Below are positions 23,981 to 29,413 of a DNA stretch of 64,000 bases, one piece after another (the stretch's first letter is position 1; every line of letters starts with the position of its first letter). Position numbers and translations under genes: made by a program. Source of the stretch: Iphione sp. A-MEVVRFRX5 (Eukaryota); contig OZ320313.1 of the NCBI GenBank assembly GCA_976226885.1, positions 75,888,001-75,952,000 of the forward strand, read 5' to 3'. A model generated the notes under the pieces. The model was given only the letters and a program-made list of their open reading frames with translations, did no database searches and was not told where the DNA came from.

Positions 23981-24064
23981 TCAACGATTAAGTGATGGAT
24001 ATTTAATCAGATAAATGATGCATATATTATTGTAATGCTCAATAATAAGTGATGGATATAGATC

Positions 24065-24102
<38 letters not shown>

Positions 24103-27100
24103 CCTGTGGAGAAGGGCAATCTGTATGTCGTCTACTGCGAAGATTATAGCCAGATGATAATGATGATGATGATAGGGATGTGTCCACTCCACTATCAGAC
24201 ACACTGGACGAATTGCTTCCACGCCGTCGTCTTTGACGTGGAGTGGATATAGTTGGCGTGGGAAATTCGTTGTCTACTCCGGAACATCCAAGAGGTGAGG
24301 ATTCACCAATTGATCCTTTATCTGATGAAGTAGGGGGATCACTTGAATGGTGACTTTGACAGGACGGAGGGGTTTCTACGGGTGGACTGTTTGCTCCAGA
24401 ACGTCCAAGAGGTGAGGATACACCAATTGATGAAGTAGATGACTCACTTGAGCGACGCCTCTGACGTGGTGGTGGAGTTGGTGGAACCATATTTGTACCG
24501 AGATGTGAATGATGTAAAGGACAACGTTGTCCATGTAGACGTCTACAAGCATCAGATATACATCTCTCAGTAATATCTGATGAATTAGGAGGTGTAGTGG
24601 CCACACTCATTACAGGAGTGTTTGGTGATGGTGGAAGTGAGTGTGATGCACGTAGACGATCAAGAACAGTGAAAGTCATAATTGACATTGAAACAGGCAT
24701 ATCACAAAGATCACCAATGGAGGAACCAGATATATTTTCACGAGAAATAGTGGGAGATGTTGACATAATAAACTGACTTGAAGTAGACATTCTGTTTTCA
24801 ACCATAGATGCCATGATGGAAACTGAAGGATATGAAACAGGAATATTGTTCTGAATACCAGTAGCAGCACCAGCGTGTGGACTAGTTGAACGTTGAAATG
24901 GATGAGGTAGAGGCGAGAGTGATCGTGCAGTAGATATTCCATTATCTACAACAGCTAGTGATGAGCATGGATTTGAAATATTGACATCTGTAGTTCCATT
25001 GGTTGGTGCTGGTGGTCGTGGTGGTGGTGAGCGAGTACTGATCGGTCTATCAGGTACGTTAGCAGAACGAGTGACCGACATGGAAGTGGACGGACTAGTT
25101 ACACTTTCCTGTTCAACAGTTGGTGAAGAAGCCAATGCGTGACTTGGATGTGAAGAGGGCACTTGGGTGGATAAAAATGTAGGAGTAGTTGGAGATGTGC
25201 TATCACAAATAGACGGGCTTAGATCTTGTTCATCAATAGTGGGTGCAGCAGGGTTGAAAGATCTTACATCAGCGCAAGGTTTTGTAGTAGAATGAACATC
25301 ATTAGTAGACTCAGAAGACGAATTATCACGTGTGCTTATACGAGATAGAGAGCGATCAGATGAGTCCGATGTGACAATAGCCATGGATCCTGAAGGGGTA
25401 GGCAAAGGAAACGTTGAGGTAGAGGGTTGATCGCATCTTGAACTTGGAGAGCTGGCAAGATTTTCGTTGGTTGATGATTTGTTTCTATTAATACCAGTTG
25501 TCATGATTGGTGTCAAAGATCCTATTGGACTGACTCTGGCATATGGTTGAACACGTGGTAAGATATTAGAACGCGGGGTACTAGTAGTCACATTTGATTC
25601 TAGTCCAGTGGTAAAGTTGGGGTGGGGTGTCATATCAAGTCCTGTATGTAGTGGTCGTCTAGTACGACAAGTCATATCCATGTATGGATGCAGAGGCCTA
25701 CGTGCAGTGGGTCGATACATGAGTGTAGAATGAGCATCAGATGAGTCAGAAGCATCTGTAGCTGGAGTTGAGAGACTGGAAGATACAGATAGAGCAGCGA
25801 ATGAATCCACAAGACCATTTGAAAGGGATGAAGGAGTGGTACGAAGTTGAGAGTCAATGTGAGCAGTAGAGGTTAGAGCATAGTTAGAAGTTTTTTGATC
25901 TGGAAAAGAAACTGGCATTAGAGGATTAGTAGAAGTAGTAGATGAGGGAGATGTTAAGTCAGATTCAATGACAGTGACAATACTATCATCACTACAAGCA
26001 CTACCACCTGACTCAGCATCAGAAAGGGGAGGAGGAGGAGGACAGACGGGGATATTAGGATCATAATTGCGTTCTGGAGTAATAGCAACGTCATATACGT
26101 CAGGCAGTGGAGGTGGTGGATAGATAGGATGAGCAGTTGTGTCAGATGCGAGGTCAACTAATACAGCTGTGCCGTCTGATCTGTCAGGGGTTGGATTTGA
26201 TATAAAAGGAGTGTCAGAAAATGTCACATTCGAACAGTCAAACAAAAAGTCAGAAGTCGTAAAGTCACGAAGAGGAATATTTTCAAATCCAGAAGGTGGG
26301 GATGGAGGAATGCCAAGCATTGCCGCAGCAGTTGCAGCAGTTGAAGACTTATCTAGAAGTGATGGTGGTGGTGGTGGGACGGCGGGAGCGGAGACACTCA
26401 CTGGTGGTGGTGGTGGTGGTGGTGGTGGTGGTGGTGGTGGTGGTGGTGGTGGCGGTGGTGGTGGTGGCGGTGGTGGTGGAGGTGGTAGTGATGGTGGTGA
26501 CGGTAGCACATTCTTCTTACATCCAGATGGACTATAAGTGGGGGAGAACATAAATACTTTATCTCATTAATCATAAGGTAATAAATGGTGGATATGATCA
26601 ATATTAGCTATAGTATTTATAAGTCTCTCTAAACACATTTAAGTATGTTTTGATCAATTTGGTGGTTTGCCCATGTACTCGGTCTTAGCCTGTAACCTCG
26701 ACCTCGTACCAGCGAGGAAACAGCAAAATGATTAGTATAATATAATGCTAATGTCATGACATATATATAATTTGTTGAACAAATAATGACAATAATAACA
26801 GTTATAATGCGGGTAACAATGGCTTACCGGGTTGGAGCTGTGGTAGATCTGGTAGTTGTTTCAGTCTCAGTGCAATGAGAATTTTGAGTACAGCGGTTGT
26901 AGAGTTTGTAGTGCACGCATGGATAAAGCACAAATCCAGTTAACATCACTGCTATAACTGTAGCCATCACTGCGAGGATAAGGGAACTCGAACTCAATGG
27001 AGACGAAGCATTAGAATGATTGACTTGTTCTAGCTTAGGTAGACTGTCAGGAAGATCAAACATGTGAGTTATCGCCTCGTCAGTAGTCTGCGTTCCATCG

Positions 27101-27450
27101 TGAAGTGGATCAGGAGTAGAGTCATCACTAGTTGGAGTACTTGAGGTAGATCCAAATGTAAGTTCAAATAGGCGGAATTGATCTAAGTTGAGTGCCTCAA
27201 CATAAACAAGATCAGGAAATATTTGTTTCAGTTGAGCGCGCAATGAATCTTCCTCGTCCACAATGTAAGGAGCATTGAGATACAAATGAAGATACCCCTG
27301 ATAGCTTCGACGTAATGAAAAGAAAAAACTGGTGGCCACTGAGTTGCAATATATTGAATCCTTGAGACATACACATCGTCGGCAAAGTACATCATTGCAG
27401 TCCACGCGCTGAAGTGTTAACATTAAGAGTAAAATAAGAAATGGACGCAT
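23981..27450 (-). CDS. Spliced type-I membrane protein A: signal peptide, LRRNT/mini-LRR ectodomain, S/T stalk, TM helix, very long P/S/T-rich cytoplasmic tail
   Basis: Exon 27450-26828 has MRPFLILLLMLTL.., CRRCVCLKDSIYC and TM LILAVMATVIAVMLTGFVLYPCV, and ends CG|gtaagc. The acceptor ctcccccacttatag|T at 26532/26531 is phase-matched and joins it to the 856-aa ORF. A likely further donor CAG|gtactt lies at 24104; the last exon is uncertain. Confidence 0.68.
24066..24099 (+). repeat. A34 homopolymer (poly-T on the coding strand just after a predicted splice donor)
   Basis: 34 consecutive A; explains the poly-Phe and poly-Lys ORF artefacts. Confidence 0.9.
26402..26486 (+). repeat. (GGT)n trinucleotide repeat encoding ~28 consecutive prolines on the minus strand
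   Basis: Interrupted by GGC/GGA variants, all synonymous for Pro in the minus-strand frame. Confidence 0.9.
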
Positions 27451-27985
27451 GATGAATACTTCAATAGAACTTTTCCCTTGAGCGGTAACTTGTTCCTAGT
27501 CCGAAGTCCAAGATGGAGATAAAGTAAAGCGTGTAGTTTCGTAACGCAGAAAGCACGTACGTTGGAGATTTGTAATCCGATCGTGATAAAGCACCCGGGA
27601 GAGCTTTAGTTATCAAATAAACGAGTGAGCTGAATTGTTTATCAACAAAACACGATTAGCACTCAAAGATGGTAAGCCCGAATGAACGGCGAGCGGAGTT
27701 CGAAACCAAAGCCGTGTTATCAGTCCGGTGGACTGAAAGCGAGTGCAGCGACACTGGCGTGGGTAGGGAAATCGCGCCAAGGGAGGGGTAGGGTATCCGG
27801 TAATGGAGCGTAAGAAGGAAGATGCCAGATCGGCTTAAGAGATAAGGCTAATTGGAGTTGAAAGTGCAATAAACTTTAGTCGGTAGAGAGTGTATAGAAG
27901 GCGCACTCGTCAGTTCAAACGATGCAGATCTTCAACAGACGACTCAGTGGTCGGAACGCGAGTTCAGTGTGTGCAGAGATTTACA

Positions 27986-29413
27986 ATGGAGAAGGTTGTG
28001 CTTTTGACAGTTTTACTGCTCGCCATTACTATTCTTGTGGAGCCGTTTAGATGTCCCATTAGATGCGGACGATGCCGCCCGCCTTTGATGAGGTGTAGAG
28101 GTGAAATTGATCCTTTCATGGTTCAATTCACACCAAATGATTTAATTACGGGACTTGATTGGGGAGGATGTTACATCACTGAAGTAAGAAGTAGAATTTT
28201 TCGCATATTCAAAAATATAGTGTTTATAGACCTGAGACACCAAGGAGTAAAATTTAGTTGTGACTCGCTGAGAAAAGTCCCTGAACACATTAGAGTTTTA
28301 TCAGATTGTAATTTGTCATCAACATCTTCATCATCTGTTTCTGGAACACACAAGCGGATGTATACCACATTGGATCAAAAAGAAGTTATGTCGACAGAGC
28401 AGCTCTCGAGTCAGACAATTCTCTCATCAACAAGCAGTTCCACTTTTATGAGTAGGACAACCACTACTGTTACCCCTCCACACTCAACATTGCCAGTTAC
28501 GCGATTCTTTAGTCGAGTTCATCACACCTCGACCAACAGCAAACGCTTTATGACTACCACTAAAACTGACACAGGAGATGAGACGTCACCAGCAGTGGAA
28601 GGGACAGAATTAATTACTGAGATTGAAAGCACACCGGGAACACAGGGAAATAATGCAGCTCATAGTGAACCAAAGAAGGGGTTTGGTATAGCAGCTTTAG
28701 CAGGTTCGGTGACTGCCTCCGTATGCGCTGTGCTTGCATTAGTTGTTGTATGGTGTTATTGCATACATAAGTGCAAGCAGTTCAGGAAAGCACGAAACAT
28801 TAGAGGAAAGATAAACGACAGAGTTAGAGGCGATGGAAAGAATAAAAGACAAAGTCATGGAATGAAGAGAAGAAACACAATATGGAGGGATCCATCAATT
28901 TATATGGTAAGTTTGTGTTAAAAGATATAGATTAATGATATAATTACTGTTTCTTAAAGTTTTTATGCATCATTAAATTGATTATCAATATAGTACTATG
29001 AACTATATTACTCTATAGTATAATTTATATAGCACTTTTTATTATGTCATTGTTCTACTCCATATTTTATTATTTTACTAATCCACTCTTCTCTTATTAT
29101 ATCAGGATACAACAATGACGATAGAAGGACCTTCACCATGCATTGAAGTAAGACAATTTAAGATAAACCATTTATTACTCAGGTAGATTTAATAGATGTG
29201 ATACATATTAGTTCATAGTGTCATTACGGACAATCAGTGCTCAATATTAATCAGTCAATCAATTATAGATGTAAATACATTATTAAGTTGATGTTGTTAT
29301 ATGACATCTAACACAGATTTATTATACATAGTAATCCAACATTCATGTATACATTTCTTTATTAGACAATCGAAATGGAAGATGCAACTGTGACCGAACA
29401 TGTAAGTAATTAA
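27986..29413 (+). CDS. Spliced type-I membrane protein B: signal peptide, LRRNT/mini-LRR ectodomain, mucin-like S/T stalk, TM helix, basic tail
   Basis: ATG at 27986 gives MEKVVLLTVLLLAITILVEP, then CPIRCGRCRPPLMRC, ITGLDWGGCYITEV, FKNIVFIDLRHQ and FSCDSL..VLSDC. TM is GIAALAGSVTASVCAVLALVVVWCYCI. Donor ATG|gtaagt at 28906. Phase-0 mini-exons at 29106-29147 (DTTMTIEGPSPCIE) and 29366-29413 (TIEMEDATVTEHVSN*). Confidence 0.75.

What the first reader, a model, noticed from the sequence alone, without database searches (positions are those of the whole stretch)
23981..28921. Divergent pair of mini-LRR type-I membrane glycoprotein genes: an adenovirus-E3-like cassette in a Polinton
Seen: two head-to-head genes (27450 minus, 27986 plus) share one architecture: signal peptide, 4-Cys LRRNT-like cap, about two LRR-like strands, Ser/Thr-rich stalk with N-glycosylation sequons (NHS, NAS, NLS), single TM helix and cytoplasmic tail. 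They sit directly after the protease/capsid block and share a ~535-bp intergenic region. Established: Polinton-type jelly-roll virions are not known to need envelope glycoproteins; adenoviruses encode immune-modulating type-I membrane proteins in E3; LRRNT-LRR-stalk layouts occur in immune receptors such as lamprey VLRs. Inference: these may be captured or evolved receptor decoys, or cell-surface modulators of host immunity or cell-to-cell spread.
Basis: partly seen in the sequence, partly recalled or inferred. Interest (0 to 1): 0.72.

Follow-up and report, generated by a model that had tools for sequence, protein, structure and literature searches.

The report
Polinton membrane pair with chromatin-type tail
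A virus-like jumping element, present in many copies in an animal genome, keeps two back-to-back genes for predicted membrane proteins, one with a tiny predicted leucine-rich-repeat head and the other likely spliced onto a long floppy inner tail ending in motifs that resemble nucleosome-binding ones, so the pair likely links a host membrane to host chromatin.

Summary
The pair is real. It lies in a complete Polinton (20758-41332, 6-bp target duplication) and recurs head-to-head in two deep Polinton lineages of this genome (152 and 143 matches in lineage 1), with purifying selection on both ectodomains. B (27986+) is a minimal LRR protein (profile to TLR3 E 3e-10; fold matches are LRRs) with unnamed same-architecture relatives elsewhere, and is not a recent host-TLR capture. 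For A (27450-) the LRR fold is inconclusive, and A and B are not detectably homologous. A's stop codon sits inside a splice donor in 35 of 39 copies and is in phase with the 856-codon Ser/Pro ORF. The predicted ~1,020-aa product has a tail ending in GYNLRSR and, in most copies, RRSxR|L, resembling the foamy-virus Gag and HMGN nucleosome anchors. B has conserved micro-exons. No RNA or binding test was available. Best reading: a membrane-to-chromatin host-modulating module, not a plain E3-like decoy cassette. The scan noted this before in other copies in this genome (three findings), and I took the A-splice lead from them.

The parts
20758..41332 (.). Complete Polinton/Maverick element, AGTAGT...ACTACT ends, short terminal inverted repeats, 6-bp target-site duplication AATATG (20752-20757 and 41333-41338)
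26828..27450 (-). Gene A exon 1: predicted signal peptide, 4-Cys cap plus small alpha/beta domain, stalk, TM helix, start of tail; ends at a predicted phase-2 donor that contains the ORF's stop codon
26532..26827 (-). Predicted intron 1 of gene A (296 nt, GTAAGC...polypyrimidine-TAG)
24104..26531 (-). Predicted exon 2 of gene A (most of the 856-codon Ser/Pro/Thr-rich ORF 23981-26551); low-complexity, no second TM segment; in frame with exon 1 (623 + 2428 nt = 1017 codons)
24128..24151 (-). GYNLRSRR motif near the end of A's predicted tail, resembling the foamy-virus Gag chromatin-binding peptide GGYNLRPR
23869..23877 (-). Predicted tiny terminal coding exon of gene A (two codons and stop here; begins with Leu in 8 of 12 stretches with a located donor)
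27451..27985 (.). Shared intergenic region, likely a bidirectional promoter; GATA-type sites enriched and 7-mers conserved across subfamilies
27986..28906 (+). Gene B exon 1: predicted signal peptide, LRRNT + about 2 LRR + short Cys cap, Ser/Thr stalk, TM helix, basic tail; ends at a predicted phase-0 donor
29106..29147 (+). Predicted exon 2 of gene B (42 nt; weakly conserved, 36-54 nt candidates in 7 other loci)
29366..29401 (+). Predicted 36-nt acidic micro-exon of gene B, ending in a further donor
29429..29965 (-). Adenain-type protease (assigned by position and recalled motifs; no Pfam hit)
29946..31328 (-). Major capsid protein (assigned by position and size; no Pfam hit)
32166..33287 (-). 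Retroviral-type integrase with chromodomain
   Evidence: rve E 3e-7, Chromo E 4e-6
34184..34813 (-). Packaging ATPase
   Evidence: Pox_A32 E 0.003
34897..39750 (-). Protein-primed PolB (assigned by recalled motifs), with N-terminal zinc fingers and a C-terminal NADAR domain

Best explanation
These are two conserved cargo genes of a Polinton family that encode predicted single-pass membrane proteins: B has a predicted minimal LRR head and a likely spliced sorting-type tail, and A is likely spliced onto the neighbouring Ser/Pro-rich ORF, giving a ~1,020-residue protein whose inner tail ends in motifs predicted to bind nucleosomes, so the pair likely acts as a membrane-to-chromatin host-modulating module. 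Shown: the frames, their pairing, their Polinton context, purifying selection and conserved splice signals. Predicted: B's LRR fold, the membrane topology and the exon joins. Inferred mechanism: both genes are co-expressed from the shared promoter and enter the secretory pathway; B's LRR head binds a partner (A or a host protein) and its tail steers trafficking; A's basic C-terminal end reaches chromatin, most likely after the stalk is shed and the tail is cut free, and there competes for the H2A-H2B acidic patch or tethers element DNA. Retention of intron 1 would give the 208-aa short-tailed form.
For: A's stop codon lies in a phase-2 GT donor in 35 of 39 ORFs (GTRAG in 32), against 0 of 169 control ORFs. 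A conserved peptide opens the long frame in 26 of 39 loci; in 23 of these it starts one base after an AG, and in 22 no in-frame Met precedes it, so it is best reached by splicing. Long exons of 350 or more codons were found in 31 of 39 loci. G[YHRC][NHD]LR[SEHK] occurs in 17 of 31, RSx[RC]V (the donor) in 20 of 31, RxxSxSSxxS[DE] in 22 of 31; shuffled means 0.02, 0.69, 0.10. The next exon begins with Leu in 8 of 12 stretches, completing RRSxRL. The foamy-virus Gag peptide GGYNLRPR binds the acidic patch through its Tyr and Arg (PMC12125541, passages); HMGN RRSARLSA and Dsup RRSSRL do too (PMC12487698, passages). B: profile to TLR3 E 3.3e-10, model pLDDT 84.7, top fold rows LRR, Z 7.7; tail donor in 27 of 30; 36-nt micro-exon in 27 of 37. 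dN/dS 0.14 (A) and 0.17 (B) in mid-distance pairs. The pair recurs in a second lineage in 15 of 15 fetched loci.
Against: The splices rest on DNA signals only. The motifs are short, were defined after looking at the copies, and are basic patches that could be nuclear-import or nucleic-acid-binding signals. The window's own subfamily has lost RRSxR|L, and GYNLR-type motifs are absent from 14 of 31 long exons (7 of 31 do not reach the end block). In lineage 2 most long frames end differently, with RRSRRL seen in one. No adenain consensus site lies in A or B, so release would need a host protease, for which there is no evidence. Near-identical copies show dN/dS about 0.65, as expected for decay after insertion. 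Only two of five B models exceed pLDDT 80, no Foldseek match reached E 0.001, and Z under 8 is not decisive.
Confidence: 0.42

Rival explanations
1. Surface immune modulators or receptor decoys, working like adenovirus E3: B (and A) bind host immune receptors or ligands at the cell surface and re-route them; A's long tail is only a scaffold for trafficking adaptors.
For: B's closest solved sequence matches are TLRs. The host has at least 43 TIR matches, most in long open frames. Relatives of B carry [FY]x-N-x-IY tail motifs in 9 of 11. A's tail has FE[STN][IV]xL in 26 of 31. GATA-type sites are enriched in the promoter, 67 against 24.7. E3/49K is a shed type-I protein and RID removes surface receptors (PMC12093491, passages).
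Against: B's head is under strong purifying selection rather than diversifying, is only about 90 residues long, and is no closer to host TLRs than to generic LRRs. This reading leaves the nucleosome-anchor-like motifs unexplained.
Confidence: 0.25
2. Envelope or entry proteins: A and B decorate a membrane around the particle; B attaches to a target cell and A's long basic tail links the membrane to the DNA core, like a matrix protein.
For: The pair sits beside the protease/capsid block in 36 of 40 lineage-1 loci and 14 of 15 lineage-2 loci and is as constrained as the protease and minor capsid. Nematode Mavericks carry a type-I fusogen.
Against: No fusogen gene was seen in the window's element; the F-like gene met in two copies belongs to a separate high-copy insert. 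Late-domain motifs are not enriched in A's tail (PPxY 0 of 32; P[ST]AP 5 against 9.3 shuffled).
Confidence: 0.15
3. Uncleaved nuclear-envelope tether: A stays whole, travels to the inner nuclear membrane by its long disordered linker and basic signal, and ties chromatin or element DNA to the envelope; the heads face the ER lumen.
For: A TM segment, a long disordered linker and a distal basic cluster (4 or more K/R in 15 of 32 exons, shuffled total 0.5) match the targeting design described for yeast Heh1/Heh2 (PMC4695851, PMC4569319; search listing with abstract starts only). It needs no protease.
Against: Mucin-like stalks and LRR heads are typical of surface proteins (general knowledge). B's tail looks like an endocytic or sorting signal. 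The tail is much longer than known linkers (recalled).
Confidence: 0.13
4. The Ser/Pro ORF is a separate gene and A and B are short-tailed proteins as the first reader drew them.
For: The window's long ORF has its own ATG.
Against: Donor, acceptor phase and the Met-less conserved start of the long frame all point to splicing.
Confidence: 0.05

Closest known systems
Accessory/cargo genes of Polintons (Mavericks, adintoviruses): PLA2X, GasderminX, Cupiennin, Oncoid, Adintoc (PMC8502044, section 3.2 and passages); accessory regions of vertebrate Mavericks (PMC8097293, passages); nematode fusogen MFUS-1 (10.1101/2022.07.12.499685, passages)
   Same: Conserved non-core genes inside a complete element; MFUS-1 is also a signal-peptide, single-TM protein.
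   Different: None of the passages read describes LRR-headed membrane proteins or a spliced membrane-anchored disordered tail; vertebrate Maverick genes were reported as intronless. The supplements with gene maps were not read and could list these genes under neutral names.
Adenovirus E3 proteins (E3/49K CR1-beta, RID-alpha/beta)
   Same: Virus-encoded membrane proteins beside structural genes; E3/49K is a glycosylated type-I protein whose ectodomain is shed.
   Different: No sequence or fold match found; LRR-type head; divergent genes with own introns; very long predicted tail; no immune target tested.
Platelet GPIb-beta and GPIX (PDB 3rfe, 8wfs)
   Same: Minimal capped LRR type-I proteins; B matches at Z 6.1 and 6.0, A at Z 4.3-4.4. 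They form a heteromer (entry title; recalled).
   Different: 13-14% identity, no stalk-plus-giant-tail layout, host genes; A-B pairing was not tested.
Nucleosome acidic-patch anchors: foamy-virus Gag CBS, KSHV LANA, HCMV IE1 (PMC9040877, PMC12125541), HMGN and Dsup (PMC12487698); passages read
   Same: Short Arg-anchor motifs at the end of a disordered region; GYNLRSR against GGYNLRPR, RRSxRL against RRSARL/RRSSRL.
   Different: Those proteins are soluble or capsid-borne; here the motifs end the predicted tail of a membrane protein. Binding is untested.

Membership tests
Polinton/Maverick element | Terminal inverted repeats starting AGTAGT and 6-bp target duplication | tested here: met
Polinton/Maverick element | Retroviral-type integrase, packaging ATPase, protein-primed PolB | tested here: met
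   for integrase and ATPase; PolB by recalled motifs in the ORF (no Pfam PolB hit)
Polinton/Maverick element | Double-jelly-roll capsid and adenain protease | tested here: inconclusive
   No Pfam hit; assigned by position, size and recalled motifs; not folded
Extracellular LRR protein (gene B) | LRR consensus repeats detectable by profile | tested here: met
   TLR3 E 3.3e-10 with the 25-sequence profile; Atlas nearest clusters LRR at 0.90; no single sequence passes a Pfam LRR cut-off
Extracellular LRR protein (gene B) | LRR solenoid fold with Cys caps | tested here: met
   pLDDT 84.7; best Z 7.7, rmsd 2.5, 86 aligned, list dominated by LRR proteins; Foldseek none at E 0.001
Extracellular LRR protein (gene A) | LRR repeats and solenoid fold | tested here: inconclusive
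   pLDDT 80.4; best Z 5.3 is a non-LRR, LRR rows at Z 4.6 and below; only the Cys cap resembles LRRNT (2 of 28 members, best E 0.018; opticin E 0.65)
Toll-like receptor | Cytoplasmic TIR domain and long LRR array | tested here: not met
   No TIR hit in A, B or the Ser/Pro ORF; heads are about 90 residues
Adenovirus E3 | Homology to E3 proteins | tested here: inconclusive
   No E3 match listed in Pfam, PDB sequence or viral fold searches; gene A's model was not searched against viral folds
Adenovirus E3 | Binds and down-modulates host immune surface proteins | not testable with these tools
   needs cell assays
Nucleosome acidic-patch binder | Arg-anchor motif in a disordered region | tested here: met
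   searches compared; motif resemblance only
Nucleosome acidic-patch binder | Direct binding to H2A-H2B acidic patch | not testable with these tools
   needs binding assay

The most novel reading that the evidence does not exclude
An animal Polinton encodes its own signal-relaying receptor: a mini-LRR pair at the membrane senses a host cue and frees a long tail that docks on nucleosomes with viral-type arginine anchors, a Notch-like membrane-to-chromatin switch that could govern when an integrated element wakes up or silences host defence.
Probability: 0.17. Interest if true: 0.88.

Novelty: new variant of a known kind. Interest (0 to 1): 0.6.

Why it matters
Whether animal Polintons live as viruses, and how they deal with host cells, is open. 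Two membrane genes kept by purifying selection through two deep lineages, as strictly as the protease and minor capsid, argue for a host-facing phase of the life cycle. The predicted layout of gene A (surface-type head, TM helix, long tail with nucleosome-anchor-like motifs) was not found in the papers searched, and it yields cheap, sharp tests: one RT-PCR junction, one peptide-nucleosome assay, one localisation. It also warns that ORF-only annotation of Polintons cuts such genes in two.

Tried and rejected
No RNA holder listed for window 26500-29500; this is no evidence either way. Word-based protein searches with B 1-115 and with the A alignment found nothing; the broad B alignment returned 7 mini-LRR relatives and one long LRR protein. 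The genomic context of the distant relatives could not be obtained: no related locus for P0012 in viral contigs or P0014 in metagenomes; three short weak viral matches were not followed. The Atlas lead of A to EPCIP/C21orf62 (0.82) is below the tool's reliability level and was not pursued. The MHC class I family search rang nowhere, controls included: uninformative. No E3 protein was listed in fold or sequence searches. A and B as recent paralogues: rejected. B as a recent host-TLR capture: rejected for 18 of 43 TIR loci tested. The F-like fusogen as part of the element: rejected, it is a separate insert. ESCRT late domains and adenain sites: not enriched or absent. A conserved fourth exon of B antisense within the protease gene: best acceptor column in 13 of 33 only, unresolved. 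Literature searches without a description of such genes.
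Full report
Context. The finding lies in a complete Polinton at 20758-41332, with AGTAGT/ACTACT ends, short inverted repeats and the target duplication AATATG. It carries integrase and ATPase, a PolB, and ORFs assigned as capsid and protease by position and recalled motifs (no Pfam hit for these). Seven other copies are 98.95-99.7% identical over the pair, so this subfamily spread recently.

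Observation. Gene A (26824-27450, minus) and gene B (27986-28921, plus) are as described: hydrophobic N-terminus, four Cys, Ser/Thr stalk, one TM-grade segment, sequons NHS, NAS, NLS. The sequons are not conserved; 19 of 38 A homologue ORFs have none. The A and B profiles do not align.

Conservation. In the window's genome A gave 152 matches (150 of 603 candidates scored; 1 of 150 listed rows with an internal stop) and B 143 matches (127 of 1450 scored; 4 with a stop), at 36-100% and 29-100% identity. I fetched 40 loci chosen for diversity; 36 of 40 hold B and the protease within 10 kb, and the other four have Polinton genes in adjoining stretches, two of them beyond an insertion. A second lineage (capsid 54% identical) has the same pair: 15 of 15 fetched loci show both genes, 14 with protease or capsid. 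All loci were picked by A or B hits, and only top candidates were scored, so a host-encoded copy is not excluded. For pairs with synonymous difference 0.05-0.3, dN/dS is 0.14 (A head, 7 pairs) and 0.17 (B head, 11 pairs), against 0.31 for the protease and 0.26 for the minor capsid; synonymous sites are saturated in most pairs, near-identical pairs give about 0.65, and pairs are not independent.

Gene B. Its head folds with pLDDT 84.7 (two of five models above 80). The fold list is dominated by LRR proteins, best Z 7.7, with GPIb-beta at 6.1 and GPIX at 6.0; Foldseek gave no match at E 0.001. The two-lineage profile hits TLR3 at E 3.3e-10. A search of 1.84 billion representatives gave 19 hits, 11 of them short proteins with the same head and stalk; all looked up are unnamed singletons of unknown context. 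Nine of 11 such tails hold an [FY]x-N-x-IY motif. Of 43 host TIR matches I tested 18; the best domain score with the B profile was 7.4 bits against 45-92 for the mini-LRR relatives. B's ORF ends just after a phase-0 donor at 28907, with a donor in the tail of 27 of 30 homologues under a permissive pattern. A 36-nt AG...GT micro-exon with an acidic motif lies before the protease stop in 27 of 37 loci, and 7 more show a near match. Lineage 2 has its own conserved candidate exon there.

Gene A. Its head gives a consistent model (pLDDT 80.4) but no clear fold match: best Z 5.3 to a non-LRR, LRR rows at 4.6 and below. Only the Cys cap resembles LRRNT. Two lineage-2 loci carry the head twice in tandem. 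Earlier notes of this scan on other copies suggested a splice to the Ser/Pro ORF and a chromatin-type motif; I tested both. A's stop codon is part of a phase-2 donor in 35 of 39 ORFs, GTRAG in 32, against 0 of 169 control ORFs. A conserved peptide opens the long frame in 26 of 39 loci, one base after an AG in 23 and without an upstream Met in 22. In the window the exons are 27450-26828 and 26531-24104, 1017 codons in frame, then a two-codon exon at 23877. The long exon was recovered in 31 of 39 loci, is 41-51% Ser/Thr/Pro and has no TM segment in the window copy. Conserved islands are FE[STN][IV]xL (26 of 31), RxxSxSSxxS[DE] (22), G[YHRC][NHD]LR[SEHK] (17) and RSx[RC] at the donor (20), all far above shuffles but defined after inspection. 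Of 21 downstream stretches examined, a credible donor was located in 12 (6 gave none, 3 spurious), and in 8 of these the next exon starts with Leu, completing RRSxRL; the window's subfamily lacks this. The motifs resemble the foamy-virus Gag peptide GGYNLRPR (PMC12125541, passages) and the HMGN/Dsup motifs (PMC12487698, passages), which bind the nucleosome acidic patch, a common viral tethering site (PMC9040877, passages). Late-domain motifs are not enriched.

Promoter. In 16 intergenic regions WGATAR occurs 67 times against 24.7 in shuffles, and two overlapping 7-mers occur in 14 of 16 against a shuffled maximum of 9. Shared ancestry may contribute.

Mechanism. Shown: pairing, context, selection, splice signals. 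Predicted: B's LRR fold, topology, exon joins. Inferred: co-expression, B as binding and sorting subunit, A as carrier of a tail that reaches chromatin, by release (favoured) or as an uncleaved nuclear-envelope tether of the Heh2 type (PMC4695851, PMC4569319; listing and abstract starts only). Rivals are an E3-like surface decoy (E3 features from PMC12093491, passages) and envelope proteins (fusogen precedent in 10.1101/2022.07.12.499685, passages).

Literature. PMC8502044 (section 3.2 and passages) lists PLA2X, GasderminX, Cupiennin, Oncoid and unnamed Adintoc genes, with no occurrence of 'leucine', 'glycoprotein' or 'splic' in the main text. PMC11071296 (passages) mentions candidate envelope glycoproteins in one adintovirus. 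PMC8097293 (passages) reports intronless vertebrate Maverick genes. Searches listed no paper on LRR membrane genes in Polintons. Supplementary maps of these papers were not read and may contain them; subscription papers are not covered.

Verdict. A real, conserved feature and a new variant of Polinton cargo. The gene model is about 0.9 likely, the membrane-to-chromatin mechanism about 0.4. Interest 0.6.

Noticed in passing
window 34897-39750 (-): The PolB ORF ends in a NADAR domain (E 2.7e-13) and begins with C2H2 zinc fingers.
   Followed up: no
L025:311-3010 (+); L063:819-3518 (-): An 898-aa baculovirus-F-like gene (E 1.6e-12) belongs to a young high-copy insert (122 scored matches at 97-100%, 2743 candidates); in L063 it sits between gene B and the protease with no gag-pol ORF beside it.
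   Followed up: partly
L104:3539-4405 (+); L107:3509-4351 (+): Lineage-2 gene A carries two tandem copies of its head domain.
   Followed up: partly
window 29402-29965: B's micro-exon ends in a conserved donor 27 nt before the protease stop, so a further exon would lie antisense within the protease gene or beyond; no well-conserved acceptor found.
   Followed up: partly
window 21746-22462 (+): A conserved 238-aa ORF with an LxCxE-like motif (LLCQE) and paired Cys; a candidate Oncoid in the sense of PMC8502044.
   Followed up: no
window 39800-40706 (-): Short ORFs at the right end of the element are flanked by GT donor-like sites and may be exons of another spliced gene.
   Followed up: no
G000, 43 places (L116-L133 fetched): The host has an expanded set of TIR-bearing genes, many in long open frames and in clusters.
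   Followed up: partly
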